Positions 22,758 through 43,913 of a stretch of 64,000 nt of DNA are shown one piece after another. The notes beneath the pieces were generated by a model that had not been told where the DNA came from, searched no databases, and worked only from the letters and a program-made list of their open reading frames with translations. Position 1 is the first letter of the stretch; each line of letters begins with the position of its first letter. Both the position numbers and the translations under genes were made by a program. The stretch is from a phage: NCBI GenBank assembly GCA_014435945.1, contig GCA_014435945.1_4088.1, one strand, 5' to 3'.

Positions 22758-22762
22758 TAATT

Positions 22763-23887
22763 TTAATTATCTAAGCCACCAATTACACTGAACTGTGTGG
22801 TAACGTCTGAACTATTATCTATGTAAGTTCTTCTACCAACATAATATAGTTGTCCTTTTGCTTGTATAAAAGTTACTGTCCCTGTATTGAATGTTATAAT
22901 ATCATTGTATGTAATGTCAGGTGGTAGTGCTGCTGATAACGCAGTAACTTTACTTAATGCAGCACTAGTACTACCATTTATACCAGCAGCAATACTACCA
23001 GTACCATAGAACTTATTATCTTTACCAATGAATACGTTGGCTGATGCTTGTGTAGCTGATGTTATTGCCTTACCAATTTGGAATGCGGTTCCTATGGTGT
23101 ATGGTGTGCTCCTGGCTGCGTCTATGCTTTGTGTATATCCATCCCCTAGCTGACCATTAACTTTGTCACCACATGAGTATAGAGTACCATTGAGGCTGTA
23201 TATGATCCCACGGTTAGAGAAGCTAACAGCTTCTGCATTAGTCCATACTGGTGCGGTGTATGAGTTTACACGACTAGCGGTAGTTCCTAGACCTAGTATA
23301 CCATATGTGTTATCACCACATCCAAACCATTGCCCAGAACTGTTTTGATAGAACACTGAACGTTCTGTTGATTCCATGCGTACAGCATCCACAGCACCAC
23401 TTTTAACGAACGAAGTGGATGAGGATGTAGTACCAGTACCCAATGCACCATAAGTGTTTGTACCAATCGCATAGATTGATCCTAGTGGTGTCATAACACG
23501 TATGCAGTTATATCCCAATTGAACTTTACATTCAAATAGGTTGTCCCATATTTCAGGAACAGCAGAAAATAAATTTGTAATTTCGAACCATGATGTTGTC
23601 GAACCAGTTAATCCTATACTGCTTTTGTTTCCTAAAATGAAAACAGTTTTGTCCTTCTTAATTATCCATGATGATAGGAAACCTATCTCACAGCTATGAA
23701 CATTTGATTCTATTTGGGTAATATAATACTTAACTGTGTTATCACCCATGAATGCCGCAGCACCGGATGCAAAAAGGTTTCCAGTTTGTTTATTTAAAAT
23801 GTAGTTATTGTTTCCATATACTCTAACATCATAAGAACTTTCTTGTTTTTCGTTCCCATAATCAAATAACAATACGAAAGGTAACAT
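22763..23887 (-). CDS. RCC1-like repeat protein, array member 17 (divergent leader MLPFVLLFDYGN)
   Basis: Repeated G-x-N-x-x-GQLG-x-G-like motifs; paralog of array. Confidence 0.7.
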   Translation of the reverse strand: MLPFVLLFDYGNEKQESSYDVRVYGNNNYILNKQTGNLFASGAAAFMGDNTVKYYITQIESNVHSCEIGFLSSWIIKKDKTVFILGNKSSIGLTGSTTSWFEITNLFSAVPEIWDNLFECKVQLGYNCIRVMTPLGSIYAIGTNTYGALGTGTTSSSTSFVKSGAVDAVRMESTERSVFYQNSSGQWFGCGDNTYGILGLGTTASRVNSYTAPVWTNAEAVSFSNRGIIYSLNGTLYSCGDKVNGQLGDGYTQSIDAARSTPYTIGTAFQIGKAITSATQASANVFIGKDNKFYGTGSIAAGINGSTSAALSKVTALSAALPPDITYNDIITFNTGTVTFIQAKGQLYYVGRRTYIDNSSDVTTQFSVIGGLDN

Positions 23888-23964
23888 GATAAAATCTCCT
23901 TGTGTTATACTTTATTTAATCATTTTATAATGTACAATTTTACAGCGATTTAATTGAGGTACTC

Positions 23965-24615
23965 ATGAATAAAAGAAGTAAGTTCTATCAAGAATATTTC
24001 ACTAAACAGAAACGATTCACAAAAAAATACTTTACATCATCCCACCGACCAGTTGCAAGTTACAAACGTCCTAATACTAACTATCTTACTGGTGGCAAGT
24101 TTAGTGCAAAGTTCGAATTACTTATGCGTGAAAAGAATATCAAGATGCATTACGCAGAGACGAGAAAAAACTCATCAATTATTTGCTCTGATTTTCTTGA
24201 GTACGGTTGCTTAACTTATAAATTCAACGATGTATATTTGTATATTGATGTTGATTGTAACAGTACTCGTATGTTTGAGATTTCAATTCACCCAAATCAC
24301 AACCGTTATATAAACATTAACTTGGTTGATAAAGTACTGATTGGTATATCTAGTACTGATGGTGGTGGATTTGAATTTATTGCTTCAAAATATGATGAAG
24401 ATTTCGTACTTTACCCAGTACTTGATGATGTGAAAGATATTCTCAATTCATTAAAAGGAAGTCAATACAAATTATCTGAAGAACAGCTATTCCAGTACTC
24501 ACTTATTCATGATGATATCGAGATATACTTAGAGTGTGCGAGAATCTTGGAGTATCTTTATAATGAACTAACAACAACTGGTAAAGTGACTGCATTCACA
24601 TTATATAATATGTAA
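23965..24615 (+). CDS. hypothetical basic protein (216 aa), opposite strand, embedded inside the RCC1-like array
   Basis: ORF track; SD GAGG; TATAAT upstream. Confidence 0.5.
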   Translation: MNKRSKFYQEYFTKQKRFTKKYFTSSHRPVASYKRPNTNYLTGGKFSAKFELLMREKNIKMHYAETRKNSSIICSDFLEYGCLTYKFNDVYLYIDVDCNSTRMFEISIHPNHNRYININLVDKVLIGISSTDGGGFEFIASKYDEDFVLYPVLDDVKDILNSLKGSQYKLSEEQLFQYSLIHDDIEIYLECARILEYLYNELTTTGKVTAFTLYNM

Positions 24616-24622
24616 AAGAAAA

Positions 24623-24641
24623 GCCAGTACATAGTACTGGC
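24623..24641. terminator. bidirectional terminator hairpin GCCAGTAC-ata-GTACTGGC
   Basis: Inverted repeat between convergent genes. Confidence 0.55.
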
Positions 24642-24647
24642 ATTATA

Positions 24648-25784
24648 TTAAACTGGTGGAGAATTATATGGCTCAAATTTATAAGTTGTCGTAGCAGTAC
24701 CAGCAATGGCGTTGTTAGCTAGTATGTACATAGTCCTGTAGTCGATTACCACCACAGTAATACTACCACCAAAAGCATAGTCTGTTATGTTATTAGTGTT
24801 GAATGGTAAATTAGATGAACTGGTCCATGTATTAGCTGTTGTGCTATTTGTACCATTGGAATAGCCGACACTAGATGCACCAGTTGTCCATAAGTTTCCA
24901 TCATTGAACAACGATACATGGTTAGCTGTATATGATTTATTAGGTATAGAACTATCAATTGGTGTATTCCAAACTTTAGTAACCCATGTTGTAACTGCTG
25001 TATTATTAGTAACGCCATTACCTAATGAACCATTTATTGGTATACCTCTTATATAAGAAGTGTTAGTACTAGGGTCAACATATCCAAATGTATATGTATC
25101 AAATGCAAATTGAAAACAATCAGAACTCGGTAATGTGTACAGTAATGTATATGAAGACGTGTTTATTGATGAATTTGTACCGTTCACGCCTTGGTATAAA
25201 ATACCACTAGCCAATATTTGATTATTATTTTTTGTTATAGTGTTCATTGACGGATATGTTTTCACATCACGCACATCATTAGTCACATATGTTTGTGTTG
25301 ATAATGCAACATTACTACCATTACCTATAACTCCTGTATTTGCACCACTCCCATAAAGTGAACCATCATTCAAAAGAACCATTGTGACATTACCATTTCC
25401 CGTAATTGTTTTAATATTACTAACATCCACCGCAGCAAATACAGTTGATGTTAAATCAGTGAAACGTGTATAATGTGATGTTGTGCCATTGATTGGTGTC
25501 GCAAAACCAGAATACAAAATTCTATTTTCTTTGGTAATAAGGAATGTGCCAGTAACACCATTTGAATGGATATCAACAATATTATCGCCCATTAATACCC
25601 AATCACTTACGAATGTTGTTGTGCCAGTACCTAACCCATATGTAGTGTTGTAACCACGTCCATATACTCTACCATCACTGAGTAATGTTACCACACATTG
25701 ACCACCACCACCAAGTATAACTTTTTGTATAGTACTCTTTACTTTTATATTCCCGTACTTAACCATTCTTGCAAAAGGTAACAT
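24648..25784 (-). CDS. RCC1-like repeat protein, array member 16 (leader MLPFARMVKYGN)
   Basis: Conserved N-terminus; GQLG-type repeats; own promoter/SD cassette. Confidence 0.75.
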   Translation of the reverse strand: MLPFARMVKYGNIKVKSTIQKVILGGGGQCVVTLLSDGRVYGRGYNTTYGLGTGTTTFVSDWVLMGDNIVDIHSNGVTGTFLITKENRILYSGFATPINGTTSHYTRFTDLTSTVFAAVDVSNIKTITGNGNVTMVLLNDGSLYGSGANTGVIGNGSNVALSTQTYVTNDVRDVKTYPSMNTITKNNNQILASGILYQGVNGTNSSINTSSYTLLYTLPSSDCFQFAFDTYTFGYVDPSTNTSYIRGIPINGSLGNGVTNNTAVTTWVTKVWNTPIDSSIPNKSYTANHVSLFNDGNLWTTGASSVGYSNGTNSTTANTWTSSSNLPFNTNNITDYAFGGSITVVVIDYRTMYILANNAIAGTATTTYKFEPYNSPPV

Positions 25785-25856
25785 AATTCCCTCCTTTATT
25801 CATTATACTATATTTAATCAAAAAAGAAAAGCCAGTACTCAAGTACTGGCATTATT
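25785..25856 (-). promoter_or_regulatory. array intergenic cassette: hairpin terminator (25831-25850), T-run, TATAAT, AAGGAGG SD
   Basis: Near-identical sequence recurs between array genes. Confidence 0.65.
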
Positions 25857-27017
25857 TTAAATTGGTGAATCTTCAACAAATATAGTACTAGCAGTACCAC
25901 CAGATACTAGGTTAGTACCACTTGAATATATTTTGTTTCCATCTGTCATATATGTTTTACCATAGCAACTTTGGATTTTAACATCATTGAAATTTAAATC
26001 AGGAGTAATAGACTTAGTGTAAGTTAATACGTTAGTAGTTGAACCTGTACTTAATTGTCCATAGTATGAAGTCGCTGAGTTATTACCAGCAACGTATACA
26101 CCTGTGTCAGTAATAACAAAGTTAGAGTAATATCCGTACCCATATCCTATATCTAATATATTTCCTTGTGGTTGATTTGCCACAACAGTTGTCAATATGT
26201 TGGTTGATGCTGCTGTATTAGTAGCAGTCTGTCCATATGATTGGTCACCACCAGTATACACAGTAACAACAGACGTACTTTTGTTTCTAGCAATACCTTG
26301 AACCATACCATTAACAGTACTTATAAATGCTATAGTACTAACAGTTGCTGGTAATCCATCTGATAATGCGAATACATTATAAAAACTCACGGTTGAAGTA
26401 CTGTTAGTATCACCTTTAACTTCACCTGTGTAATATAATCTACCACTTTCGGCAATAAATGAACACATGTTTATACCTGCAATAATCCTTTTCGGAACCG
26501 CACCACTTGGTATAATTGATTTTACTAATGTAGTAAAACTGTTAGAATAAGAAGCATTGCCAAGCTGTCCTCCTGTGTTATAACCACCACTCCAAATAGT
26601 TCCATTACTCATAAGTATTGAAATGAAGTTATTTCCTAATGATATTTCAGTAATTGTTCCTTGAGAATTAACTTGATTAATAAGAGTTTGCATAGAAGTC
26701 CATGCATTAACAGATGATGTACCCATACACACATTGTATTGTCGCCCTGTGTATTGATATGTACCATCTGATTTGTGAATCATTGTAGCATACTGACCAC
26801 ACCATACATCAATGACATCCGATGCAGTTACTGTCCATGATGTTCTGGTTGTATTGTCTCCTAAACCCAACTGACCACTTGAATTGGCACCACGGGTATA
26901 TAATTTACCATTATTACCCAATACCATAACCCAGTTATACCCTGCAACTAATTTTTTAATGGCAGCAGGGGATGGTGCAATGTTTCCGTAATCAAACATT
27001 CTAACAAAAGGTAACAT
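25857..27017 (-). CDS. RCC1-like repeat protein, array member 15 (MLPFVRMFDYGN)
   Basis: As above; 12-nt gap to upstream gene. Confidence 0.75.
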   Translation of the reverse strand: MLPFVRMFDYGNIAPSPAAIKKLVAGYNWVMVLGNNGKLYTRGANSSGQLGLGDNTTRTSWTVTASDVIDVWCGQYATMIHKSDGTYQYTGRQYNVCMGTSSVNAWTSMQTLINQVNSQGTITEISLGNNFISILMSNGTIWSGGYNTGGQLGNASYSNSFTTLVKSIIPSGAVPKRIIAGINMCSFIAESGRLYYTGEVKGDTNSTSTVSFYNVFALSDGLPATVSTIAFISTVNGMVQGIARNKSTSVVTVYTGGDQSYGQTATNTAASTNILTTVVANQPQGNILDIGYGYGYYSNFVITDTGVYVAGNNSATSYYGQLSTGSTTNVLTYTKSITPDLNFNDVKIQSCYGKTYMTDGNKIYSSGTNLVSGGTASTIFVEDSPI

Positions 27018-27029: not shown

Positions 27030-28148
27030 CTATATTACTATTTTTTCTTCAGTATATATTAATGCTTTATCTGAGGTAGTGTATCCAGGTAAAGGATACA
27101 ATCTACCTGCAACATAACATATGTCATTTTCTATATAATATGATGAATATGTACTGTCAAAGAATATAGGCTCTATTGAAGTTGGTGCATTGATCATCTT
27201 AGTAAATGCTGGAACCGGTCCAGGTGCAAAACTTGCATTTGTACTGGTAAACCCATAATTATCGGAAACTGCTGACGCATAATAATCGGTTCCATTCTGG
27301 ATTATTATTCTTGCTGCAACCGAACTACTATTATGAACGATTTTAGGAAATGCAAATGTAGCTGCATTATATGTGAATGGTAACGAACAAGAAACTAAAG
27401 TTGCAGTTGCACCAGACACTGATGTTCCATATGTATTGTTGACGTTTCCTCTGGCAAATACACCACTAGCTGTATTAAGCACTACAACAGCAACTGTTGC
27501 TGAATAACCCAAAACCCCTGTTGCAATTTGGGTAAACCCAGTGGAACTAGGTATTTGACTAGCGTTTGGGTTTCCAGAACCATAAAGAACCCCAGAATTA
27601 GTTAATGCCCATACGTTTGCATACATTAATTTGAATGACTTGACATCACTGACTATTGTATTTTTAACAAAAGATGTACTACTACTTGGTGTGCTCATTC
27701 CAAATATATATTGCGTATTCGTACCAATGAACCACAATTCTCCTAAATTTGTTAGCACACCTATACAGTTACGTAACACATTAACTTGAACATCAATTAT
27801 TGTACCAGTTATTGCATTAAAAATCGAACTACAATTAACAAATATATTACTTGTTGGATAACCAAATGCAGTAGTTACACCGCTACACATATACTGACCG
27901 TCTTTGAGTTTTAAAAATGTCCACGTAGGTGAATTGTAAAAGTCATCAACATTTTCATATATCAAAGTCCACTTATCAGCAGATGTAGTAACATCACCAA
28001 ACTGACCATTTGTATTTGGTCCAGTAGCATATAATTTCCCACTTGTTGTTAGTAATAAAACTCCATTACTACCATCCGTGACCAATTTGCGTATTTTCGT
28101 AACTTCTCTTACATTCCCGAACTTAACCATTCTTGCAAAAGGTAACAT
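27030..28148 (-). CDS. RCC1-like repeat protein, array member 14 (MLPFARMVKFGN)
   Basis: As above; 9-nt gap, SD only. Confidence 0.75.
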   Translation of the reverse strand: MLPFARMVKFGNVREVTKIRKLVTDGSNGVLLLTTSGKLYATGPNTNGQFGDVTTSADKWTLIYENVDDFYNSPTWTFLKLKDGQYMCSGVTTAFGYPTSNIFVNCSSIFNAITGTIIDVQVNVLRNCIGVLTNLGELWFIGTNTQYIFGMSTPSSSTSFVKNTIVSDVKSFKLMYANVWALTNSGVLYGSGNPNASQIPSSTGFTQIATGVLGYSATVAVVVLNTASGVFARGNVNNTYGTSVSGATATLVSCSLPFTYNAATFAFPKIVHNSSSVAARIIIQNGTDYYASAVSDNYGFTSTNASFAPGPVPAFTKMINAPTSIEPIFFDSTYSSYYIENDICYVAGRLYPLPGYTTSDKALIYTEEKIVI

Positions 28149-28157: not shown

Positions 28158-29315
28158 CTAATTTATATTCAATTTGATTTCTGTGTAGTTCATCAGTTTT
28201 GGATTATTACCTGGAAAATAAGTTAAAGAATCATCATTAAAAGGCCCACTACCAAATACTTTCCCATCAGAGTTTATAAGAGTTGTATAATTACTTGCAC
28301 TAACAACTGTCTCAATATTACCATCCACTGAACTGAAATCCTGTAATGTAAAGTTTGAACCAGCACCTGGCACAGTTGGGTTGGTGAATCCCATTCTGTT
28401 AGTACTACTGCTATTTGCACCAACACCATAATGAACGACTGAATTGGAAATCCACACACTGACGGTCGCTGTCTGTTCATCTGTTAGAATCTTAAATGTA
28501 CTTACATCATAAGAAAACGGCAATGTAATCTTGCTATTAATTGCACGCTGTTCTGCACTGAATGAATAACCATATCTGTTCGACGATAAACCACGGAAAT
28601 ATAAACCATCACTTTTTGTGTATAACAATTCACCATTTAAACCATTACCGTAGATATTAAGTATAGCAGTATCACCAAGGTTCGTAAATGTAGTCACATC
28701 AGTATTACCACTAATAAACTGATAATTACCACAGAACCACGCTGTATTATCATTCTTAAGAGCCACTATAGTCTCATAAGAACAACTTACAAAATTCCTG
28801 CAATTGGTGTTTATCTTCGTAAATGTTCCTAAACTATTACTTTTGCCTAACCCCAATTGACCACGGTTTCCATATCCAATACCATATAAATCACCATCAG
28901 TGTTTAATGCATATACTGTGTACGAAGCATTATTCCTTCTGGTAAAATCAATCTTCTTGATAGTTCCTAATGCAGAGAACGTAGAACTAACATCAATATA
29001 ATTCAATCCTGAACTACCACCCAGTACTGTAGAGTCGCCAGCAGCAAGATAACGTCCATCAGACATTATTAATAATGTACATCTGGGATGACATATCATA
29101 TCCGATACACCCTGCATTACCATCTGCGGAACTCCCCCACTAATCTCACTAGAACTACCACTACCAAATCTCCAGTTGGTGTTTTGACCATATGCATACA
29201 CGTCACCTGTATTCGTCAATATCATCTGACTAGTACCGAAAGAGTTTATCTTCTTAATCCCAGCAGGTACTGGTGCAATATTCCCGTACTTAACCATTCT
29301 TGCAAAAGGTAACAT
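28158..29315 (-). CDS. RCC1-like repeat protein, array member 13 (MLPFARMVKYGN)
   Basis: As above. Confidence 0.75.
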   Translation of the reverse strand: MLPFARMVKYGNIAPVPAGIKKINSFGTSQMILTNTGDVYAYGQNTNWRFGSGSSSEISGGVPQMVMQGVSDMICHPRCTLLIMSDGRYLAAGDSTVLGGSSGLNYIDVSSTFSALGTIKKIDFTRRNNASYTVYALNTDGDLYGIGYGNRGQLGLGKSNSLGTFTKINTNCRNFVSCSYETIVALKNDNTAWFCGNYQFISGNTDVTTFTNLGDTAILNIYGNGLNGELLYTKSDGLYFRGLSSNRYGYSFSAEQRAINSKITLPFSYDVSTFKILTDEQTATVSVWISNSVVHYGVGANSSSTNRMGFTNPTVPGAGSNFTLQDFSSVDGNIETVVSASNYTTLINSDGKVFGSGPFNDDSLTYFPGNNPKLMNYTEIKLNIN

Positions 29316-30500: not shown

Positions 30501-30571
30501 ATTTCCCTCCTTTATTCATTATACTATATTTAATACAAATAAGAAAGCCAGTATCAAGTACTGGCCTATAT
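30501..30571 (-). promoter_or_regulatory. array intergenic cassette (hairpin 30546-30564, TATAAT, AAGGAGG)
   Basis: Seen directly. Confidence 0.65.
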
Positions 30572-31741: not shown

Positions 31742-31811
31742 ATTTCCTCCTTTATTCATTATACTATATTTAATCAAAAAGAAAAGCCAGTATCAAGTAC
31801 TGGCATTATTG
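31742..31811 (-). promoter_or_regulatory. array intergenic cassette (hairpin 31786-31804)
   Basis: Seen directly. Confidence 0.65.
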
Positions 31812-35466: not shown

Positions 35467-35537
35467 ATTTCCCTCCTTTATTCATTATACTATATTTAAT
35501 TCAAAAAGAAAAGCCAGTATCAAGTACTGGCATTATG
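35467..35537 (-). promoter_or_regulatory. array intergenic cassette (hairpin 35513-35531)
   Basis: Seen directly. Confidence 0.65.
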
Positions 35538-36657: not shown

Positions 36658-37788
36658 TTAATTTAATAATGCCCCTGGCAAATCCACTTTGACGAATTGT
36701 GCATATGCTGAGGAATTTTGATCAAAGTTTGGTCCCAATCCATAAAATGAGCTAATGCCGTCTTCATTTGTGTATATGATATAAACGTTCTTTACATCAT
36801 TTCCGCATATAAATCGAATGTCTTTCGTTTGTGTTCCCGCTGGAACATTACGAAGGTTCACAACGCCATTACTTGCATTGTTATCAGCCGCCGCAATTGG
36901 TAATTGATTTTGACCATATTGACCACGCATATTTTTTGCATCTAAACCAAACACAGTATCTGATACCGCACCAACTTTCAAAAATGAACCAAAACTATTA
37001 TTGAATGACTTTGGAAATGTACCACTATAAACACTTCTCCCATCTGATAATACCGCTGAACTGAATTTCCCGCTATTCGATATGGCAAATTCATTGTAAG
37101 GAAGTGTACCCATTTTGGTATATACAGAATATGAATTAGTGGAAGTATTATCAATAATCTTATTACCATTATATCCAATACCATACTGGTATCCGTCTGC
37201 ATCTTGAACTATACACAAAGGACCACTTGGGGTTTGTGTCAACGAAACAACACGTTCAACTTGTATATCACCAAATGTATTTCTTCGCCATGTTCTATCT
37301 ATTATAGTACTAGTATTACCCAAAGATAATGCCACACTATATAATAGATTGTTTTCAGTAAAAATGGCAACATAATATGCGTGGTTAATAACTTGCTTCA
37401 TCCCAGCATCAATAACTTCCTGTGGAATATGATCAGTAACATCCAACCAATCAAGGTTAGATGATGCAATATCTGGAGTACTGAATTTGTCAAATCTAGT
37501 TGAGCCACAAACTAGCACTCTATCATCATTTGTCAAAGCCACTGTGCTAGTCTGCATATTAGAACTGAATGATTTAACATTACTAATGTTAGACTTGTAC
37601 CAACCCTTATCAGCAGCACCCACCGTGAATCCGGTTCCCATTGATCCACTTGTACTTGTACCATAAGCCCACATCTCACCACTATATGTTAGTGCCATAC
37701 AGTGGCTTCCATTTGCTTGGAAATCCTTTATACCAGTGGGAGCAACCACTGTATTCCCATAATCAAACATTCTAACAAAAGGTAACAT
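36658..37788 (-). CDS. RCC1-like repeat protein, array member 6 (MLPFVRMFDYGN); start at conserved MLPF codon
   Basis: Track start 37803 adds MEILV. Confidence 0.7.
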   Translation of the reverse strand: MLPFVRMFDYGNTVVAPTGIKDFQANGSHCMALTYSGEMWAYGTSTSGSMGTGFTVGAADKGWYKSNISNVKSFSSNMQTSTVALTNDDRVLVCGSTRFDKFSTPDIASSNLDWLDVTDHIPQEVIDAGMKQVINHAYYVAIFTENNLLYSVALSLGNTSTIIDRTWRRNTFGDIQVERVVSLTQTPSGPLCIVQDADGYQYGIGYNGNKIIDNTSTNSYSVYTKMGTLPYNEFAISNSGKFSSAVLSDGRSVYSGTFPKSFNNSFGSFLKVGAVSDTVFGLDAKNMRGQYGQNQLPIAAADNNASNGVVNLRNVPAGTQTKDIRFICGNDVKNVYIIYTNEDGISSFYGLGPNFDQNSSAYAQFVKVDLPGALLN

Positions 37789-37803
37789 AACTAAAATCTC
37801 CAT

Positions 37804-37863
37804 ATAATAATTATAATGTATTTACAAAAAAATACCAGTACGTATTTCAGTACTGGTATAATG
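37804..37863 (-). promoter_or_regulatory. array intergenic cassette variant (hairpin ACCAGTAC..GTACTGGT, TATAAT, GGAG)
   Basis: Seen directly. Confidence 0.55.
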
Positions 37864-39045
37864 TTATGGTAAAATAATAGCTTGTAACGAACTCATACCC
37901 AATGTTGGGACACTCGCCTGTGGTGCTGGTGAATTCAATTTTGGTGATGAAACCGCATATGACATTCCTGAACCCAAATCTGGATCAAAAACTACAGCAC
38001 AATAATTCCCACTATATATAAGTCCATTCTTGTATCCTTGTGCACTTTGAATGCATTTCGTGAACGTACCAATATCTGTAGTGGCATTTATTAAGTTCCT
38101 CCCACGATAACCGCAGGTGTATATGAAATTATCATCGCCTATGTACATACTAGAATCCCCAGAAGAACTACATAGATACGACATATAAGCACGCATGTTT
38201 TTAGGAGCAACTGACAATGTACCTGCATAGAATTTATTATTCGAACCCGTAATATCACCATCACCCAATGCACCAAAACTTCCCCAGCCAGTACCGTAAT
38301 ATCTCTTATCACTCAAAAATATAATACAGTTGTTATTACACATCTTGATTTGATATATCAATGAAGGATCAACCCCAGGGAATGATTCAGTGAATGTTAG
38401 AACAGCCGGATCAGTACTAGCATTACATTGATGATATGTATTAGTACCAGCGGACAAGATTGTTCCATTAGCTAACAGAATTCTCGCAGTACCAGTACCA
38501 GCAGTACAAGCAACTGCACTTCCTGCACTTCCGGTGTATATTTGTCTGAAAGTAAAGAAACCAACAGTTTTACTTCCCTGCCCACTCCAACCAGTATTAT
38601 CAACTCCACACGCCCATACTGAACCATCTTGCATGATCATCATTACACCAAAGCGTTCTATTGAAATATAAACAATCTTCGTTGTATCAACTGCACTAAA
38701 TCTAGAAGTTATATCAGTCCATACCTTAACACTTACCGCCGTCGCACTGGAAGTAGGATCTTCACCAGCTATCATTATCCTCCCATTGTTAGTAAGATAC
38801 ATTGTCTGACTATAACCAGTACTACAAAACTTAACACTATTAGTCTCTGGAACTTTTAACCACTCGTTGTAACGTGTTACGTTAGTGTTATTACCTAACT
38901 GATAATAGTTATTCATCCCAGATACATATAACACACCATCCTTTATTAAACTATAAGTCGCACTATAGTCACTACAGGTATAACGTGTACCCACAGGTCG
39001 CTCAACGACGTTCCCATAATCAAACATTCTAACAAAAGGTAACAT
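37864..39045 (-). CDS. RCC1-like repeat protein, array member 5 (MLPFVRMFDYGN)
   Basis: As above. Confidence 0.75.
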   Translation of the reverse strand: MLPFVRMFDYGNVVERPVGTRYTCSDYSATYSLIKDGVLYVSGMNNYYQLGNNTNVTRYNEWLKVPETNSVKFCSTGYSQTMYLTNNGRIMIAGEDPTSSATAVSVKVWTDITSRFSAVDTTKIVYISIERFGVMMIMQDGSVWACGVDNTGWSGQGSKTVGFFTFRQIYTGSAGSAVACTAGTGTARILLANGTILSAGTNTYHQCNASTDPAVLTFTESFPGVDPSLIYQIKMCNNNCIIFLSDKRYYGTGWGSFGALGDGDITGSNNKFYAGTLSVAPKNMRAYMSYLCSSSGDSSMYIGDDNFIYTCGYRGRNLINATTDIGTFTKCIQSAQGYKNGLIYSGNYCAVVFDPDLGSGMSYAVSSPKLNSPAPQASVPTLGMSSLQAIILP

Positions 39046-39118
39046 AATAAAATCTCCGTAATTAAATTATATAGTATTTACAAAAAATACCAGTACATAT
39101 TTCAGTACTGACCTATTA
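39046..39118 (-). promoter_or_regulatory. array intergenic cassette variant
   Basis: Seen directly. Confidence 0.55.
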
Positions 39119-40240
39119 TTAAAAGGGCAACGGTAACTCAGTAAAAGTACTTACGTCCGGTAAACCATACATTGAATTAGCATCACCACAGTAATACCAC
39201 TTCGTAGAATCATGTACCACCGATAAACGCTGTGCACATAACACTTCCTGTATGTCATTAAACACCATCGGGACTAACTCATATGTATCCGCAAATGAAG
39301 ATACACCACCACTCGCATGAAAAGTATTCGTCCCAGCATAAAATAACTGATTAGTGTTCTTACCCACAGCAAATGTCATCAATATCCCATCATTCGCCCA
39401 TAAAGAAGAAAACTTATCAACACTACCAGAAAGCTCTGTGTAAGTACTCGTAATGGCACTCGCAGCCGCCGCATTACCCATCTGTTTATTCAAGTTCTGT
39501 CCAGCAATAAAATATCTCGTGCGTGCACTAGAATCAGTATATAATAACCCAGTGTTCGTAGTCATCATTCCAATGTCCTTAATCGTCATACCAGTCTGTG
39601 AATAACTTAGATACGAAGTTAAATTAACATTATTACCCAACGAACCGTTATCACTCATACCACAACGATGTAATATACCACTTGTATCAACGTAGATTGT
39701 ACTAACTAAACTCGTATACAACTCTTGTACATTATTCGCAATAAACACAGCAGTCGCCTTATTACTAACCCCACCAAATGATAGGTTATTATCAAATCCC
39801 TTAGCGTATAATTGATTATTAGTAGTCAATAATCCAATCGTGAAATAAGACATTTTCATATCCCTTACTGTACTCAAATCTACTGCCCCAAATTGGTGCG
39901 TAACATCTGTCCATGTGAAAATCTGTGCACTACCAACACCACCCGTTTCAAACCATTTGTCACCACAGTACAATATGCGATTACCCTTAGTAAAGATAAC
40001 TGTTACCAATCCACTACCACACGCAAACTTTACATCACTTCTAACCTTCGTCCAATTAAGTACATAGGTAGTGGTGTTATTACCTATACCTAACTTGCCA
40101 TAACGGTTATAACCACGCACCCACAAATCACCACTCTTAGTAATTAATAGTAATGCGTCTCCTGTACTTATTATTCGAAATCCCGAACTAGGATCAGGTG
40201 TAATATTTCCATAATCAAACAATCTAACAAAAGGTAACAT
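39119..40240 (-). CDS. RCC1-like repeat protein, array member 4 (MLPFVRLFDYGN)
   Basis: As above. Confidence 0.75.
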   Translation of the reverse strand: MLPFVRLFDYGNITPDPSSGFRIISTGDALLLITKSGDLWVRGYNRYGKLGIGNNTTTYVLNWTKVRSDVKFACGSGLVTVIFTKGNRILYCGDKWFETGGVGSAQIFTWTDVTHQFGAVDLSTVRDMKMSYFTIGLLTTNNQLYAKGFDNNLSFGGVSNKATAVFIANNVQELYTSLVSTIYVDTSGILHRCGMSDNGSLGNNVNLTSYLSYSQTGMTIKDIGMMTTNTGLLYTDSSARTRYFIAGQNLNKQMGNAAAASAITSTYTELSGSVDKFSSLWANDGILMTFAVGKNTNQLFYAGTNTFHASGGVSSFADTYELVPMVFNDIQEVLCAQRLSVVHDSTKWYYCGDANSMYGLPDVSTFTELPLPF

Positions 40241-40249: not shown

Positions 40250-41443
40250 CTATGATTGCCATAACTGCGTTGGCATTAATGTTAATGTTTTAATTACGGA
40301 AGTACCATCCGGTAAGTTACCACCTGAACCGTTAAAGCCCCCACATGCATATAATTTATAATCTTTAGTTATAATTATTGTTCTGGACCAGTCTTTGGAT
40401 GCCATAAGAACATTGTCATATCCACCCTGTATCGCACTTAAAGAAAACGCCCCCCACGAAGTAATTACTGTTGTATTTCCCGTCCCTTCTTGACCATATG
40501 TATTGATGCCTGCACTCCTGACATATGATGGGTATTGAGCCATAGGTGCACCAATTGTTGAGTTACCCATATTACTAGGACACAGGAAACCATCACTAAT
40601 ATTCACTATAACCTGTGAATTCTGAACTGTAGTTAATTGGTTTGTAGTTGAAGTAGTACCATTCCCAGCTTGTCCAGAATTGTTTCTACCACTCCAGTAC
40701 ACCCTACCGGCAGTGAACCACCAGGTAACATCATAAGTAGCACTTATATAATCGACGTTGGATCGTATTAATTTATTAGTAAAAACGTATGAGCTAGTCC
40801 CACCACCACTTTCACCAAAGTTATCCTTACCACAAAACCATGCTTCTTTATTTGTTTTGAGATAGTGCGTACCCTGTAATGAACACGCCAATTGAGAAAC
40901 TTCACCCATACCAGTAACAACTGTTAGTACTGGAATGGAATTTTGGTTACCTGTTCCACATTCGGCATTTGCATTTTTACCACAAACAACTACTCTTCCA
41001 TCGTGTAGTAATATTCTAGTACTTTCACCTATATGTACACTCTTGATTAAATTAGCGTGTACATTTATTTTGTTAAATGCGGCAGTAACATCAGTCCATG
41101 TTCTAAAATAACCATTAACTGGAGTTGCATCTCCATAATCGGGGAATGCTACAGTATTCCCTGTGAAATATATTCTATTATCCAAGTCAATCATCAATGA
41201 GCCATGAACGCCTAACCAAAAGGCTGCACAGTGCGTTGCCAGTACTGTAAAAGTAGAAACTGTCGATTGATTCCCTAGACCTAATTGGCTCAAGTTATTA
41301 CCACCATAACCGTATAGTGTATTCGTGGGCTTATGTAGATACATAGCATTAGTATAATGTTGCTGTAAAACATCAGTGAACTCAACTGGATCAGGAATAG
41401 GCAGTTTATTCCCGTATTTAACCATTCTTGCAAAAGGTAACAT
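40250..41443 (-). CDS. RCC1-like repeat protein, array member 3 (MLPFARMVKYGN)
   Basis: As above. Confidence 0.75.
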   Translation of the reverse strand: MLPFARMVKYGNKLPIPDPVEFTDVLQQHYTNAMYLHKPTNTLYGYGGNNLSQLGLGNQSTVSTFTVLATHCAAFWLGVHGSLMIDLDNRIYFTGNTVAFPDYGDATPVNGYFRTWTDVTAAFNKINVHANLIKSVHIGESTRILLHDGRVVVCGKNANAECGTGNQNSIPVLTVVTGMGEVSQLACSLQGTHYLKTNKEAWFCGKDNFGESGGGTSSYVFTNKLIRSNVDYISATYDVTWWFTAGRVYWSGRNNSGQAGNGTTSTTNQLTTVQNSQVIVNISDGFLCPSNMGNSTIGAPMAQYPSYVRSAGINTYGQEGTGNTTVITSWGAFSLSAIQGGYDNVLMASKDWSRTIIITKDYKLYACGGFNGSGGNLPDGTSVIKTLTLMPTQLWQS

Positions 41444-41513
41444 ATTTCCCTCCTTTATTCATTATACTATATTTAATCAAAAATAAATGCCAGTACACAG
41501 TACTGGCATAATA
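41444..41513 (-). promoter_or_regulatory. array intergenic cassette (hairpin 41489-41507)
   Basis: Seen directly. Confidence 0.65.
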
Positions 41514-42692
41514 TTATCGGTTAAATTTAAAATCTGTTATGTGTGTCCATGTATGATTTAATGGTGTACTCATTGGTGTAAAGCCAGCAGGGTCTGACAA
41601 AGCTGTACCACGTGCGTACATAAATTGATTGCCAGTACAATCCATTATAGCATAAGAACGTTTTGCTGTGCCACATTTGAACCCAACTGCACTACTTGGG
41701 GTCGGTAATACTTCAAATGTAGGTGCATTTGAACTACCACCCCCATCTTTTGTTCCAGCTATGTACAGAACTCCATTAGTATCAATGATTAAGTTAGTCC
41801 AATATACTTGTTCTCGTCCAGCAAAAAAATATGTTAAATCACCTGGTACAAATGGTAACGTTCCTTTATATATTGTGGTATTAACATCCACTGGTGCACC
41901 AGCTACACCCCATGAACTCATATAGTTTCTCCCACTTGCGTAGAATGTAGTTCCTTTACCGTAAAGTATTAATGTTGCTAGACTTGTTCGCATTGCATTA
42001 TATTCAAACTCAGGATCATCAGTAGCGTCCTTAAAAATCTGTGTCCATGTTGTTATATTGCCAGTAGTTGTAACACCCATTTGATAATAATAATTATCAC
42101 CAGTAGCATAGAATTCTTTAGGGCCAGTTTGTACAATTGCATTCCTATTAGTTAACCAAAAATCTAATGTATTAGTCTTGATCTTGGTTGGTGTGTAATT
42201 CGCCACGGTATTTCCTTTTCCGAAATAACCATTAGCGTTATTTCCATGACCCCATAAATCACCATTAGTTGTGCGTAGGAATAATGTACCAATATTGAAT
42301 CCAACTTTTTCTATAGTACTTATGTCAATACCAACAGTCGTGTACTTCGTTGTAAAATCTTGAAAAGTACTCCAATAATTAGATGAACCATTAAACATGG
42401 TTTGTTTACCAGTGTACTTCACTTTATTATCTTTAGTGATAAGTAATGTCCCCCACACTGACGCGAACATCAACTTAACATTTTCCATAACAAAGTATGG
42501 CTTACCGTATGCTGACGCGGTAGAGTTCAAACCTAATAGTTGTCCATTATTACTACAACCCCATACTTCGCCGTTATCCAAAAGCATCAACATAGTAGGT
42601 TTGCCAGATGATACATCCAAAAAGAAATCTTTTGGTGTTGGTACACCAGGTGTAATATTTCCATAATCAAACATTCTAACAAAAGGTAACAT
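41514..42692 (-). CDS. RCC1-like repeat protein, array member 2 (MLPFVRMFDYGN)
   Basis: As above. Confidence 0.75.
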   Translation of the reverse strand: MLPFVRMFDYGNITPGVPTPKDFFLDVSSGKPTMLMLLDNGEVWGCSNNGQLLGLNSTASAYGKPYFVMENVKLMFASVWGTLLITKDNKVKYTGKQTMFNGSSNYWSTFQDFTTKYTTVGIDISTIEKVGFNIGTLFLRTTNGDLWGHGNNANGYFGKGNTVANYTPTKIKTNTLDFWLTNRNAIVQTGPKEFYATGDNYYYQMGVTTTGNITTWTQIFKDATDDPEFEYNAMRTSLATLILYGKGTTFYASGRNYMSSWGVAGAPVDVNTTIYKGTLPFVPGDLTYFFAGREQVYWTNLIIDTNGVLYIAGTKDGGGSSNAPTFEVLPTPSSAVGFKCGTAKRSYAIMDCTGNQFMYARGTALSDPAGFTPMSTPLNHTWTHITDFKFNR

Positions 42693-42764
42693 ATTTCCCT
42701 CCTTTATTCATTATACTATATTTAATCAAAAATAAAAGCCAGTACTCTGTACTGGCATATTAAT
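42693..42764 (-). promoter_or_regulatory. array intergenic cassette (hairpin 42738-42756)
   Basis: Seen directly. Confidence 0.65.
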
Positions 42765-43913
42765 TCATTGTATAAATGACATATCTACTTCTGTATAATT
42801 AAGAACGTTCTGTCCAGAAATACCACCCATTACTACTATTGCAATGCCACAATAATATAATTTTCCAGTATCCGTAAGTATAAGTGAACCAGATGGACTG
42901 CGTACCAAATTACACGAAGTATTAAACGAAGTATATGAAGGAGTATAGGAGTACTGATTATTATTATTACCAACACCTAATTGCCCAAACCCATTCGATC
43001 CAGAAGCATATAGAACTTCATCTGCTTTGACAATATGTGATGCCATGTTACCAACACAAGTATATAGAGTATAAACTCCTGAACTCAATAATGTCGGAGT
43101 TTTATATTGTATATCTGTAGATGTAGAAGTACCACCTGTACCAAATTCGTTCCCATATTGTGCACCGAACTGTTTACCACAAGCGTACAAATTATTATCC
43201 GATTTGATAAAAAATGTACTCTGATAACTTACATTAAAATCTATAACATCCGAAGAAATCATCGTCACCCCAGTAATAGAAGTTTGATTACCCGTGCCCA
43301 ACTGGTAGTAATAGTTAAAACCACAACCCCATAAAGTATTATCTTCTCGCAAATAAATGTTACCAACTGCCTTTTTAACCGAAGTTATAGTATCTACTCT
43401 TTTGAATGTGTTAAAAGAATTAATGTTTGTGCCATCACCAAATGATGATATGTTCGATATATTGTTAGCTCCACAACAATACAATGTACCATCGTTTGTT
43501 ATCAAATTCACCTTCATATCATAAAAACTACTCATGTATTTTATATCAGAAACATTAATACCACTTGATGTTATCCACGTAGTACAGTCCGTCCACAAAG
43601 TTTTTCTATCAGTTACACCAGTGAATGCCTTCGTGTTACCAGTGATAAAAACTTTTCCAGTACCTTTCTCTTCATACAATTGACAATCACTACTGTTATC
43701 TTCCAATAGAACTCGTTTAACATTCTCCGCACAAAGAATAAATTTACTCGATGCTACACCTGTACCAGTACCCCAATTCGTCGCAGAAGATGCATACAAC
43801 TTATCAGTATAAGTATCATGAAGATACATAGAATCACTGGAATATATTTTAAAACGCCCTTCTTTCTCAGGTATAATATTCCCATAATCAAACATTCTAA
43901 CAAAAGGTAACAT
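42765..43913 (-). CDS. RCC1-like repeat protein, array member 1 (MLPFVRMFDYGN); track start 43931 is translated SD region
   Basis: Start at conserved MLPF codon. Confidence 0.75.
   Translation of the reverse strand: MLPFVRMFDYGNIIPEKEGRFKIYSSDSMYLHDTYTDKLYASSATNWGTGTGVASSKFILCAENVKRVLLEDNSSDCQLYEEKGTGKVFITGNTKAFTGVTDRKTLWTDCTTWITSSGINVSDIKYMSSFYDMKVNLITNDGTLYCCGANNISNISSFGDGTNINSFNTFKRVDTITSVKKAVGNIYLREDNTLWGCGFNYYYQLGTGNQTSITGVTMISSDVIDFNVSYQSTFFIKSDNNLYACGKQFGAQYGNEFGTGGTSTSTDIQYKTPTLLSSGVYTLYTCVGNMASHIVKADEVLYASGSNGFGQLGVGNNNNQYSYTPSYTSFNTSCNLVRSPSGSLILTDTGKLYYCGIAIVVMGGISGQNVLNYTEVDMSFIQ

What the first reader, a model, noticed from the sequence alone, without database searches (positions are those of the whole stretch)
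22763..43913. 21-kb tandem array of 17 paralogous RCC1-like repeat genes on the minus strand
Seventeen consecutive minus-strand genes (369-398 aa) share the same architecture: an invariant N-terminal peptide followed by multiple G-x-N-x-x-GQLG-x-G-like repeats (for example NGQLGDG, SGQLGLG, YGALGTG, NGQLANN), the signature of RCC1-type seven-bladed beta-propellers. The bodies are highly diverged. They occupy about one third of the window. I do not recognise such an array from T4-type phages, whose hyperplastic regions are usually filled with small unrelated ORFs. Candidate roles: a diversified set of virion-associated binding proteins (receptor-binding or decoration), injected internal proteins, or an anti-defence arsenal.
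Basis: partly seen in the sequence, partly recalled or inferred. Interest (0 to 1): 0.92.

Follow-up and report, generated by a model that had tools for sequence, protein, structure and literature searches.

The report
Jumbo-phage array of tagged propeller proteins
A giant E. coli phage carries 17 neighbouring genes for propeller-shaped proteins that all begin with the same 12-residue tag. Such arrays, and the presence of their proteins in virus particles, are already published for related phages, but the tag looks like a universal plug for mounting swappable binding heads on the virion, which nobody has tested.

Summary
Seventeen intact minus-strand genes (22763-43913, 369-398 aa) share a near-invariant 12-aa N-terminus but are only 14-35% identical elsewhere. 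Pfam, a PDB profile search and AlphaFold2/Foldseek show seven-bladed RCC1-like propellers.

The window is not a classical T4 phage. It is an Asteriusvirus (121Q/PBECO4-like jumbo coliphage). There these arrays are annotated ("DNA condensation protein", PHROG 4219), were noted as multi-copy in 2017, and were found in virions by mass spectrometry (GAP32, phAPEC6, JP4). So the array itself is already known; its function is not.

New here:
- **Portable leader.** MLPFxRhhxYGN lies outside the propeller. In related arrays it also heads Kelch, LamG-lectin and glycine-rich proteins, five of seven of which were detected in CBB virions.
- **Autonomous cassettes.** Each gene or short operon has its own terminator hairpin and promoter-like block.
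- **Cassette exchange.** Window-versus-BF17 homology breaks fall in the 36-nt leader-coding block.
- **Fibre-like composition.** Members are low in charge and rich in S/T/N/G/Y, and are not basic.

Best reading (about 0.5): the leader is a virion-docking peptide that mounts a swappable repertoire of binding heads. Main rival (0.2): capsid-targeted internal proteins.

The parts
22763..23887 (-). R01, RCC1-like propeller gene (374 aa), deviant leader MLPFVLLFDYGN; separated from the rest of the array by a plus-strand ORF
   Evidence: 98.8% identical DNA block shared with BF17
23965..24615 (+). 216-aa plus-strand ORF that interrupts the array (PHROG 34359, function unknown; no Pfam hit)
   Evidence: also present in BF17
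24648..25784 (-). R02, RCC1-like (378 aa), leader MLPFARMVKYGN
25857..27017 (-). R03, RCC1-like (386 aa), leader MLPFVRMFDYGN; no orthologue at 55% identity or more in BF17, 121Q, JP4 or phAPEC6
27030..28148 (-). R04, RCC1-like (372 aa), leader MLPFARMVKFGN; 9-nt spacer after R05, so probably co-transcribed
28158..29315 (-). R05, RCC1-like (385 aa); closest phage hit is TH47 at 93%, the next only 45%
29325..30500 (-). R06, RCC1-like (391 aa), leader MLPFARMVKYGN
30572..31741 (-). R07, RCC1-like (389 aa), leader MLPFVRMFDYGN; an orthologous body elsewhere (P0016) carries the other leader class
31812..33002 (-). R08, RCC1-like (396 aa)
33074..34216 (-). R09, RCC1-like (380 aa). Modelled: seven-bladed propeller over residues about 21-375, leader residues 1-20 at low confidence
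34270..35466 (-). R10, RCC1-like (398 aa); a cassette absent from BF17 at this position
35538..36647 (-). R11, RCC1-like (369 aa), leader MLPFVRMLEYGN; orthologues in other phages carry different leader variants
36658..37788 (-). R12, the most divergent member (376 aa); AF2 gives a repeated beta pattern at pLDDT 70.9, pTM 0.77
37864..39045 (-). R13, RCC1-like (393 aa)
39119..40240 (-). R14, RCC1-like (373 aa); a cassette absent from BF17
40250..41443 (-). R15, RCC1-like (397 aa)
41514..42692 (-). R16, RCC1-like (392 aa); replaced by a different cassette in BF17
42765..43913 (-). R17, RCC1-like (382 aa), first gene of the array in the direction of transcription
25785..25856 (-). Inter-cassette regulatory spacer: terminator hairpin GCCAGTACTTGAGTACTGGC plus T-run, then AAATATAGTATAATG block and AGGAGG ribosome-binding site
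30501..30571 (-). Inter-cassette regulatory spacer (hairpin plus promoter-like block)
31742..31811 (-). Inter-cassette regulatory spacer (hairpin plus promoter-like block)
33003..33073 (-). Inter-cassette regulatory spacer (hairpin plus promoter-like block)
34217..34269 (-). Inter-cassette regulatory spacer (hairpin plus promoter-like block)
35467..35537 (-). Inter-cassette regulatory spacer (hairpin plus promoter-like block)
37789..37863 (-). Inter-cassette spacer, variant type (hairpin CCAGTACTGAAATACGTACTGG, block TAAATACATTATAAT)
39046..39118 (-). Inter-cassette spacer, variant type
41444..41513 (-). Inter-cassette regulatory spacer (hairpin plus promoter-like block)
42693..42764 (-). Inter-cassette regulatory spacer (hairpin plus promoter-like block)
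43914..43990 (-). Upstream region of R17 with a degenerate copy of the promoter-like block (AAATATGATATAATG)
22732..22758 (.). Bidirectional terminator-like hairpin (AATCCAGTACTATTATAGTACTGGATT) between the plus-strand membrane-ORF run and R01

Best explanation
This is the RCC1-like virion-protein array of an Asteriusvirus, a 121Q/PBECO4-like jumbo coliphage.

**Anatomy.** Each gene or short operon is an autonomous cassette. It has a promoter-like block (TTAAATATAGTATAAT), a Shine-Dalgarno site, a 12-residue leader (M-L/I-P-F-x-R-h-h-x-Y-G-N), a short proline-rich linker, a seven-bladed RCC1-like beta-propeller of about 360 residues, and a terminator hairpin.

**Proposed mechanism.**
- The leader is a portable module. 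It most likely docks its cargo non-covalently onto one conserved acceptor site of the virion.
- The propellers are interchangeable ligand-binding heads. In sister phages the Kelch, LamG-lectin and glycine-rich bodies behind the same leader play the same part.
- Together they give the particle a multi-specific set of accessory adhesin or decoration proteins.
- The repertoire is renewed by whole-cassette exchange, through homologous recombination in the conserved leader and regulatory joint. Rapid point mutation is not the main route.

**Shown:** the fold; that the leader is independent of the body; virion presence (published proteomics); the cassette anatomy; the recombination breakpoints; purifying selection.

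**Inferred:** docking as the leader's role, an external location, and ligand or host-surface binding.
For: **Fold.** The family profile hits UVR8, HERC1, RPGR and RCC1 at E about 1e-35. The AF2 model of R09 has pLDDT 92.3 and pTM 0.88 and matches UVR8 at TM 0.76-0.79.

**Leader lies outside the fold.** Residues 1-20 have pLDDT 52-69 in R09 and 53-75 in R12.

**Leader is portable.** The same leader heads several unrelated body types inside homologous arrays:
- the glycine-rich 121Q gp243 and its BF17, JP4 and phAPEC6 orthologues;
- Munch_544, Pfam Gly_rich_2;
- the LamG_3 protein Munch_534, plus GAP32_002 and Munch_540;
- all seven genes of the syntenic CBB array: three Kelch, two LamG_3, two GAP32_002-like.

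**Virion presence (published mass spectrometry).**
- phAPEC6: eight proteins of about 30-42 kDa at the array's position (gp003, 005, 006, 007, 009, 010, 549, 551), six of them labelled 'DNA condensation protein'.
- GAP32_001.
- JP4: two members, one peptide each.
- CBB_548, 549, 551, 552 and 553, that is five of its seven leader-bearing proteins, with 2-7 peptides each.

**Selection acts on the peptide.** Munch keeps the motif through many synonymous codon changes.

**Composition.** Members average 12.5% charged residues, 45% S/T/N/G/Y and pI 5.1-8.2. This resembles the phAPEC6 tail fibre gp256 (9.7% and 50%) and not enzymes (25-31% charged).

**Cassette exchange.** Homology blocks of 96-99.5% identity between the window and BF17 start 34-36 nt inside R07, R10, R14 and R16, or end at the R02 ATG. 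Whole cassettes differ between those blocks.

**The genes are functional.** dN/dS is 0.02-0.28 for seven of nine orthologue pairs.

**Precedents.**
- RCC1-like domains occur in tail-fibre modules of unrelated phages (rank 50).
- A conserved N-terminal peptide has been shown experimentally to dock a second receptor-binding protein in KP32-type phages.
- The Rak2-like phage phiKp24 carries 14 hyperbranched fibres.
Against: - No structure or experiment places these proteins on the outside of the particle.
- Peptide counts in virion proteomics are low: 1-5 unique peptides per member in phAPEC6 and one in JP4.
- The array lies far from the baseplate and fibre module, inside hyperplastic regions.
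- Its promoter-like block is not the TATAAATA-type motif seen upstream of phAPEC6 structural genes; only the TAAATA hexamer is shared.
- Variation among R09 orthologues is not concentrated on one propeller face.
- Known receptor-binding proteins and docking peptides belong to trimeric fibres, whereas these look like monomeric globular proteins.
- No acceptor was identified: Pfam found no T4gp10-like domain in the large phAPEC6 baseplate and fibre proteins.
- CBB has whiskers but no RCC1 homologue, so the propellers are not the 'hairs' themselves.
Confidence: 0.5

Rival explanations
1. The proteins are internal head proteins: inner-body components or proteins ejected with the DNA, possibly an anti-defence arsenal. 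On this reading the leader is a capsid-targeting sequence that takes diverse cargo into the prohead, as the N-terminal capsid-targeting sequence does for the polymorphic internal proteins of T4-type phages.
For: - The leader is a short N-terminal tag shared by unrelated bodies, which is what a targeting sequence looks like.
- The proteins are present in virions at low peptide counts.
- 121Q and phAPEC6 have a phiKZ-like inner body of unknown composition.
- The phAPEC6 authors proposed an inner-body role.
- High turnover of members between close relatives fits an arms-race arsenal.
- That T4 internal-protein loci are polymorphic and share a capsid-targeting sequence is from my own knowledge; I did not check it here.
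Against: - I saw no conserved protease site ([LI]xE type) after the leader in the printed N-termini; this was judged by eye, not by a formal scan.
- The bodies are lectin-like, propeller and glycine-rich binding folds. Their composition is fibre-like, low in charge and near-neutral in pI, and is not the charged composition expected of DNA-associated core proteins.
- RCC1-like domains sit in tail-fibre modules of unrelated phages.
Confidence: 0.2
2. The database label is right: these are regulators of chromosome condensation, or DNA-condensation proteins, that organise the packaged or replicating phage DNA.
For: The only basis is name transfer from eukaryotic RCC1 in GenBank and PHROG 4219, plus the speculation in the phAPEC6 paper.
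Against: - The similarity is to the generic RCC1-like propeller scaffold. UVR8, HERC and RPGR score better than RCC1 itself.
- The proteins are not basic (pI 5.1-8.2, 12.5% charged residues).
- RCC1's chromatin role depends on Ran and nucleosomes, which bacteria lack (established knowledge).
- The same leader carries Kelch, LamG and glycine-rich bodies, which have no link to DNA.
Confidence: 0.04
3. The leader has no docking or targeting role. Its conservation is a by-product: either nucleotide-level homogenisation of the 5' cassette joint and constraints on translation initiation, or a structural closure strand of the propeller. On this reading the proteins act inside the infected cell as host-interaction factors, and their detection in virions is carry-over.
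For: - In the window, the first 36 nt and the upstream block are nearly identical at the DNA level, and recombination breakpoints fall there.
- Leader variants track genome lineage, not body lineage, which is consistent with gene conversion.
- The YGN end of the leader resembles the RCC1 strand motif.
- The promoter-like block contains a sigma-70-like TATAAT, not the late-type motif.
Against: - The peptide motif survives across genera with different codons and different upstream DNA.
- It sits on non-propeller bodies, so it is not a propeller strand.
- AF2 does not integrate it into the fold.
- Leader-bearing proteins were found in virions in four independent proteomic studies of four phages.
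Confidence: 0.1

Closest known systems
RCC1-like 'DNA condensation protein' arrays of Rak2-like jumbo phages (121Q gp234-248, PBECO4, phAPEC6, BF17, Munch; PHROG 4219)
   Same: This is the same family and the same locus. PHROG 4219 matches at E 2e-93 to 2e-23. The flanking synteny is identical. Twelve of the 17 members have orthologues at 55% identity or more in BF17, 121Q, JP4 or phAPEC6. Virion association is published.
   Different: This window has the largest intact set I saw: 17 members, against 16 in BF17, 13 in phAPEC6, 12 in JP4 and 10 in 121Q (these counts include the glycine-rich sibling where present). Five members have no close orthologue in those four genomes. It lacks the glycine-rich sibling gene that the other four carry.
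Conserved N-terminal docking peptide of secondary receptor-binding proteins in KP32/K11/KP34-type Klebsiella podophages, and T4gp10-like branched fibre systems (phiKp24, CBA120, G7C)
   Same: A short conserved N-terminal peptide precedes otherwise unrelated, exchangeable receptor-binding bodies. In KP32, deleting it abolishes incorporation, and fusing it to a foreign domain is enough for incorporation (PMC13352976). The Rak2-like phage phiKp24 mounts 14 different fibres (PMC9700779).
   Different: Here the peptide is 12 aa, against 29 aa in KP32. The bodies are globular propellers or lectin-like domains, not trimeric beta-helix depolymerases. Seven to 17 genes share one peptide. No branching-domain acceptor was found. 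Nothing has been tested experimentally.
T4-type internal proteins (IPI, IPII, IPIII, Alt) with an N-terminal capsid-targeting sequence
   Same: An invariant short N-terminal tag sits on diverse bodies encoded in a hyperplastic, fast-turnover locus, and the proteins end up in the virion.
   Different: I saw no conserved prohead-protease site after the tag in the printed N-termini (by eye). The bodies are about 40 kDa, low-charge beta-proteins, not small charged proteins. The T4 facts come from my own knowledge, not from a tool.
PeSL (promoter-early stem-loop) cassettes of T4-like phages
   Same: Composite terminator stem-loop plus promoter motifs flank variable genes and serve as recombination joints for modular shuffling (PMC4122927). 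The spacers here have the same anatomy, and indel breakpoints map to them and to the adjoining leader codons.
   Different: The joint here extends 36 nt into the coding sequence. The motif is private to this array within the 64-kb window. The promoter class is unresolved because there is no good -35 element.
Leader-bearing Kelch and LamG array of Pectobacterium phage CBB (CBB_548-554)
   Same: It sits at the syntenic position, next to the small membrane ORFs and the NTPase. All seven genes start with MLPF..x..Y[GA]N. Five were detected in virions.
   Different: The bodies are Kelch propellers and ConA-like lectin domains, not RCC1-like propellers. CBB has no RCC1 homologue.
Eukaryotic RCC1-like domain proteins (RCC1, UVR8, HERC1/2, RPGR)
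   Same: The same seven-bladed propeller fold and the same GxNxxGQLG-type repeat.
   Different: Identity is about 15-20%. There is no Ran or chromatin context. The phage proteins carry the extra N-terminal leader. Any function must differ.

Membership tests
RCC1-like domain (RLD) beta-propeller superfamily | Sequence repeats that match the curated RCC1 repeat models | tested here: met
   Fourteen of 17 members pass the gathering score of PF00415 or PF13540. R02, R04 and R14 do not, but they hit PF25390 at E 1e-8, 9e-9 and 3e-15. The family profile hits UVR8, HERC1, RPGR and RCC1 chains at E 2e-35 to 5e-25.
RCC1-like domain (RLD) beta-propeller superfamily | Seven four-stranded blades forming a closed propeller | tested here: met
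   The AF2 model of R09 has pLDDT 92.3 and pTM 0.88, with 29 strands in seven groups. Foldseek matches UVR8 at E 1.5e-19, TM 0.76-0.79 over about 380 columns. R12 is less confident (pLDDT 70.9) but shows the same repeated pattern. The other 15 members were not modelled.
RCC1 proper (regulator of chromosome condensation, Ran guanine-nucleotide exchange factor) | Guanine-nucleotide exchange on Ran and binding to chromatin or DNA | not testable with these tools
Indirectly it is unlikely: bacteria lack Ran and nucleosomes, the proteins are not basic (pI 5.1-8.2), and UVR8, HERC and RPGR score better than RCC1.
PHROG 4219 / Rak2-like phage RCC1-like virion proteins | Full-length profile match, plus position in the syntenic array | tested here: met
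   R09, R01 and R12 match phrog_4219 at E 2e-93, 2e-40 and 2e-23 from residue 1. The array is collinear with those of BF17, 121Q, JP4 and phAPEC6.
PHROG 4219 / Rak2-like phage RCC1-like virion proteins | Presence in purified virions | not testable with these tools
   Published mass spectrometry exists only for relatives: phAPEC6 (eight proteins at the array's position), GAP32_001 and JP4 (two members). There are no data for this phage.
Docking-peptide (branched) receptor-binding protein systems | A conserved N-terminal peptide shared by otherwise unrelated bodies | tested here: met
   The leader precedes RCC1, Kelch, LamG_3, GAP32_002-like and Gly_rich_2 bodies. It is conserved across at least five phage lineages with synonymous codon change.
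Docking-peptide (branched) receptor-binding protein systems | An acceptor (a T4gp10-like branching domain or equivalent) on a primary fibre or baseplate protein | tested here: inconclusive
   A Pfam scan of phAPEC6 gp240, gp244, gp245, gp247, gp248 and gp256 found only a gp15-like domain in gp248 and nothing gp10-like. Pfam is insensitive for these proteins, and no profile-profile or complex modelling was available.
Docking-peptide (branched) receptor-binding protein systems | The peptide is required and sufficient for virion incorporation, and the body binds a host receptor | not testable with these tools
   This needs phage genetics and biochemistry.
T4-type internal proteins with a capsid-targeting sequence | A prohead-protease cleavage site ([LI]xE) at the end of the N-terminal tag | tested here: not met
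   Reading the printed first 24 residues of the 17 members by eye, I saw no conserved Glu-containing site after the leader. Only scattered members have V/L-x-E. No formal motif scan was run.
T4-type internal proteins with a capsid-targeting sequence | Location inside the head and ejection with the DNA | not testable with these tools
   No localisation data exist. 121Q and phAPEC6 do have an inner body.
PeSL-type mobile regulatory cassettes | A composite terminator stem-loop plus promoter between variable ORFs | tested here: met
   Eleven spacers carry CCAGTACT..AGTACTGG hairpins followed by T-runs. The scan found 25 terminator-like sites against 8.7 expected. Nine spacers also carry AAATATAGTATAATG (9 of the 10 window matches, against 0.88 expected).
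PeSL-type mobile regulatory cassettes | Indel and replacement breakpoints between close relatives map to the motif | tested here: met
   Homology blocks between the window and BF17 begin 34-36 nt inside R07, R10, R14 and R16 and end at the R02 start codon.
PeSL-type mobile regulatory cassettes | An early, sigma-70-type promoter | tested here: inconclusive
   There is a TATAAT -10-like element with no convincing -35. The block also shares the TAAATA hexamer with the putative late promoters of phAPEC6 structural genes and with the GAP32, Munch and XaC1 cassettes. No transcript data exist.

The most novel reading that the evidence does not exclude
The 12-residue leader M-L/I-P-F-x-R-h-h-x-Y-G-N is a general plug-and-play virion-docking tag of the Rak2-like jumbo phages (Asteriusvirus, Mimasvirus, Eneladusvirus, Munch-like and XaC1-like). 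One conserved acceptor on the particle accepts 7-17 different monomeric binding heads: RCC1 and Kelch propellers, ConA-like lectins, and glycine-rich domains. These heads are encoded as recombination-ready cassettes. This would be a multi-adhesin display system distinct from branched tailspike systems. It would also give a ready-made handle for loading foreign cargo onto jumbo-phage virions.
Probability: 0.35. Interest if true: 0.7.

Novelty: already known. Interest (0 to 1): 0.42.

Why it matters
The array takes up a third of the window and about 5% of a jumbo-phage genome, yet its function is still unassigned. The database name ("DNA condensation" or "regulator of chromosome condensation") is almost certainly a misleading name transfer.

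If the leader is a docking tag, that would explain how these phages carry and exchange a large repertoire of surface-binding modules. It would link the RCC1, Kelch, LamG and glycine-rich genes of five phage lineages into one system. It would also offer a 12-residue handle for engineering host range or cargo display on jumbo phages.

If the leader instead targets cargo into the capsid, the array would be the largest known set of injected proteins. Either outcome can be tested with simple leader-deletion and leader-fusion experiments.

Tried and rejected
**Searches that led nowhere**
- Profile search of the family against 1.84 billion representatives: 146,530 hits, and the top 150 are all giant multi-RLD cellular proteins. 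It says nothing about the phage family.
- DNA scan of IMG/VR for the leader codons: it returned only 121Q itself and one chance hit (L007).
One capped search was wasted.
- Pfam scan for a T4gp10-like acceptor in phAPEC6 baseplate and fibre proteins: nothing found.
- Rfam and tRNA scans of the window: nothing found.
- Literal search of the paper library for the leader string: no relevant hit.

**Tests that were inconclusive**
- One-face hypervariability of the propeller among R09 orthologues: loop classes score 0.54-0.70 and strands 0.66-0.82, with no clear binding face.
- Promoter class. The array block is absent from the phAPEC6 structural region. It is not the TATAAATA motif seen upstream of structural genes there and shares only TAAATA with it.

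**Ideas rejected**
- A functional link between the array and the neighbouring P-loop NTPase. The synteny is conserved in Munch, XaC1 and CBB, but the NTPase is a general T4-superfamily gene found in 1,310 phage records, including T4 itself.
- The RCC1-like proteins being the 'hairs' or whiskers themselves. CBB has whiskers and no RCC1 homologue.

Full report
**1.

The ORF listing finds 17 minus-strand ORFs between 22763 and 43931.

An all-against-all alignment gives 14-35% pairwise identity (median 21.6%), while the first 12 residues are almost invariant. In a 28-sequence alignment that adds database homologues, M1, P3, F4 and N12 are invariant and R6, Y10 and G11 are at least 90% conserved.

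Three corrections apply:
- There are two leader classes, MLPFARMVKYGN (7 genes) and MLPFVRMFDYGN-like (10 genes).
- A 216-aa plus-strand ORF (23965-24615) splits member 1 from the rest.
- Five members follow the previous gene after only 9-12 nt.

**2. The fold**

All 17 members hit the Pfam RCC1-like domain, and 14 of 17 pass a curated RCC1 repeat cut-off. A profile of the family finds UVR8, HERC1, RPGR, HERC2 and RCC1 chains at E 2e-35 to 5e-25.

The AlphaFold2 model of R09 has pLDDT 92.3 and pTM 0.88, with seven groups of strands. Foldseek matches UVR8 at E 1.5e-19 and TM 0.76-0.79. The most divergent member, R12, gives a weaker model (pLDDT 70.9, pTM 0.77) with the same repeated beta pattern.

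In both models the leader region has low confidence (pLDDT 52-75 over residues 1-20) and is not built into a blade.

**3. What genome this is, and what is already known**

Megablast places the window in the Asteriusvirus group of 350-386 kb E. coli jumbo phages (121Q, PBECO4, BF17, CMSTMSU, Turkey3, fEgEco12 and others). The flanks are about 98% identical to several records. The array matches only in patches, and no record covers more than 36% of it in one place.

The array is annotated in GenBank:
- 121Q gp234-248 are labelled "putative DNA condensation (RCC1-like)".
- BF17 has the same layout with 16 members.
- JP4 and phAPEC6 have 12-13.
- The family is PHROG 4219.

The literature also covers it:
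- The CBB paper (2017) states that GAP32_001, an RCC1-like protein, is a virion protein by mass spectrometry. It lists the multi-copy homologues in 121Q and PBECO4 (PMC5259590).
- The phAPEC6 paper (2020) reports eleven RCC1-like proteins. Its virion proteome lists eight proteins of about 30-42 kDa at the array's position, six labelled "DNA condensation protein", with 1-5 unique peptides each. The authors speculate on an inner-body, DNA-ordering role (PMC7247149).
- The JP4 virion data contain two members at one peptide each.

So the array, its fold class and its virion association are already known. The function remains unassigned.

**4. The leader is a portable module**

Scanning related loci for the leader turned up a 245-aa gene inside the arrays of 121Q (gp243), BF17, JP4 and phAPEC6 (unannotated there). 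It starts MLPFGRMVKYGN but has a glycine-rich, non-RCC1 body. Its Munch homologue passes Pfam Gly_rich_2.

Other phages show the same thing:
- In Salmonella phage Munch, an array of at least 11 RCC1-like genes also contains leader-bearing LamG_3 / ConA-like proteins (Munch_534 at E 6e-9; Munch_540).
- In GAP32, the gene next to the RCC1-like gene, GAP32_002 ("virion structural protein"), has the same leader.
- Pectobacterium phage CBB has no RCC1 homologue. At the syntenic position it carries seven tandem genes (three Kelch propellers, two LamG_3, two GAP32_002-like), and all seven begin MLPF[SPA][RI]..x.Y[GA]N.
- The CBB virion proteome detected five of these seven: CBB_548, 549, 551, 552 and 553, with 2-7 peptides and 9.5-50.7% coverage.

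The motif is kept in Asteriusvirus, Mimasvirus, Munch-like phages, Eneladusvirus (MLPFP[IV]IS) and Xanthomonas phage XaC1 (MFPIPIISxYGN). In Munch it persists through many synonymous codon differences, so selection acts on the peptide and not only on the DNA. No paper in the searchable library prints the leader.

**5. Cassette anatomy and turnover**

Eleven spacers of 53-75 nt contain a terminator hairpin (CCAGTACT-loop-AGTACTGG plus a T-run), followed by TTAAATATAGTATAATGAATAAAGGAGG and the ATG. Within the 64-kb window, the hairpin and the 15-mer AAATATAGTATAATG occur essentially only in the array: 9 of the 10 window matches, against 0.88 expected. Terminator-like sites are enriched, 25 found against 8.7 expected.

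Clustering 68 leader-bearing proteins from five genomes gives at least 29 body lineages, 12 of them singletons. Leader variants follow genome lineage and not body lineage: the FD type occurs only in the window and BF17.

blastn of the window against BF17 shows blocks of 96-99.5% identity. Their ends fall 34-36 nt inside R07, R10, R14 and R16, or exactly at the R02 start codon. Between the blocks, whole cassettes are replaced or inserted. This is the signature of recombination at the conserved leader-plus-regulatory joint. It is analogous to the PeSL motifs of T4-like phages (PMC4122927).

Orthologue pairs show dN/dS of 0.02-0.28 in seven of nine cases; R17 gives 0.61, and R15 has too few changes to judge. 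The genes are therefore maintained by purifying selection, and the repertoire diversifies mainly by cassette exchange. Fragments and truncated copies in 121Q show that individual members are dispensable.

**6. How it most likely works**

The members are low in charge (12.5% D+E+K+R), rich in S/T/N/G/Y (45%) and near neutral in pI. This resembles the phAPEC6 tail fibre gp256 and differs from enzymes and from what is expected of DNA-binding core proteins. It argues against the "DNA condensation" label.

RCC1-like domains occur in tail-fibre modules of unrelated phages:
- a Seunavirus "tail protein" that combines RCC1 repeats with a Big_2 domain;
- a 1,627-aa RCC1 protein lying between tail-fibre genes and next to a glycine-rich protein in C. 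difficile phages;
- a T7-fibre-N-terminus plus RCC1-like protein in Pseudomonas phage PollyC.

A short conserved N-terminal peptide that docks a second receptor-binding protein onto the first has been validated experimentally in KP32-type phages. There it is both necessary and transferable (PMC13352976). The Rak2-like Klebsiella phage phiKp24 mounts 14 fibres in a hyperbranched system (PMC9700779).

Putting this together, my best explanation (confidence about 0.5) is that the leader docks interchangeable globular binding heads onto one conserved virion acceptor. This would give an accessory multi-adhesin or decoration repertoire.

**7. Rivals and weaknesses**

The main rival (0.2) is that the leader is a capsid-targeting sequence and the proteins are internal or ejected.
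- For: the tag-on-diverse-cargo logic, the low peptide counts, and the inner body seen in 121Q and phAPEC6.
- Against: I saw no conserved protease site after the leader in the printed N-termini (by eye), and the folds and composition are those of binding and fibre-like proteins.

A by-product explanation for the leader (0.1) is weakened by the cross-genus conservation of the peptide on unrelated bodies. The literal "chromosome condensation" reading (0.04) has no support beyond the name.

Weak points of my preferred model:
- There is no localisation evidence.
- The array is far from the baseplate module.
- The promoter-like block is not the TATAAATA-type motif seen upstream of phAPEC6 structural genes; it shares only TAAATA and also contains a TATAAT.
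- No single propeller face is hypervariable.
- No acceptor was found.
- CBB has whiskers without any RCC1 homologue, so the propellers are not the "hairs" themselves.

**8. Verdict**

- The feature is already known as an annotated, published array of unknown function.
To the extent the library search can show, neither has been described, and both are directly testable.
- Interest is moderate (0.42). The most novel reading still open, a general docking tag for a plug-and-play head repertoire, has a probability of about 0.35.

Noticed in passing
window 44016-49000 (+ strand): A tandem run of about 25 paralogous small ORFs of 59-70 aa (PHROG 11711, function unknown). [quoted passage not shown] 2017 reported in 121Q (PMC5646251).
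   Followed up: partly
window 20288-22727 (+ strand): Seven tandem paralogous ORFs of 104-123 aa that look like multi-pass membrane proteins (PHROG 19454; weak Wzy/DUF973 hits). The arrangement 'NTPase, small membrane ORFs, then the leader array converging on them' is conserved in Munch, XaC1 and CBB/GAP32.
   Followed up: partly
window 19450-20220 (+ strand): A 256-aa P-loop NTPase, 42-59% identical to the neighbours of the arrays in XaC1 and Munch. It is also found in 1,310 phage records, including T4, so it is a general T4-superfamily gene and not specific to the array.
   Followed up: yes
window 23965-24615 (+ strand): A 216-aa ORF on the opposite strand, inserted between array members 1 and 2 and flanked by the array-type hairpin (PHROG 34359, no Pfam hit). 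It is also present in BF17. Its C-terminus is weakly similar (E 0.002) to the 219-aa ORF at 46015-46674.
   Followed up: partly
window 49000-51000: An ORF-poor stretch with no tRNA or Rfam hit. It holds at least 12 copies of the palindrome (T)CAGTACTG(A) and an iteron-like run with 8-bp period at 50108-50219. The same CAGTACT core forms the stems of the array's terminator hairpins. It may be a replication origin or a regulator-binding region.
   Followed up: no
window 50000-58000: G+C rises to 0.40-0.41, against about 0.34-0.37 elsewhere in the window. Parts of 44-64 kb also match Phapecoctavirus, Justusliebigvirus and Campylobacter phage records at 80-90% identity, which suggests some widely shared element.
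   Followed up: no
L003 (121Q) 11090-15911; L001 (CMSTMSU): 121Q carries several truncated or fragmentary array members (225-, 129- and 207-nt remnants, and a 269-aa form shared with JP4 and phAPEC6), which points to ongoing gene decay. The CMSTMSU record is riddled with frameshifts (it is marked UNVERIFIED) and should not be used to count members.
   Followed up: partly
L008 (phAPEC6) 7325-8059 and 2434-3543: The phAPEC6 GenBank record leaves at least two leader-bearing genes unannotated or mis-annotated: the glycine-rich 244-aa gene, which partly overlaps 'gp004', and a 369-aa RCC1-like gene. [quoted passage not shown]
   Followed up: partly
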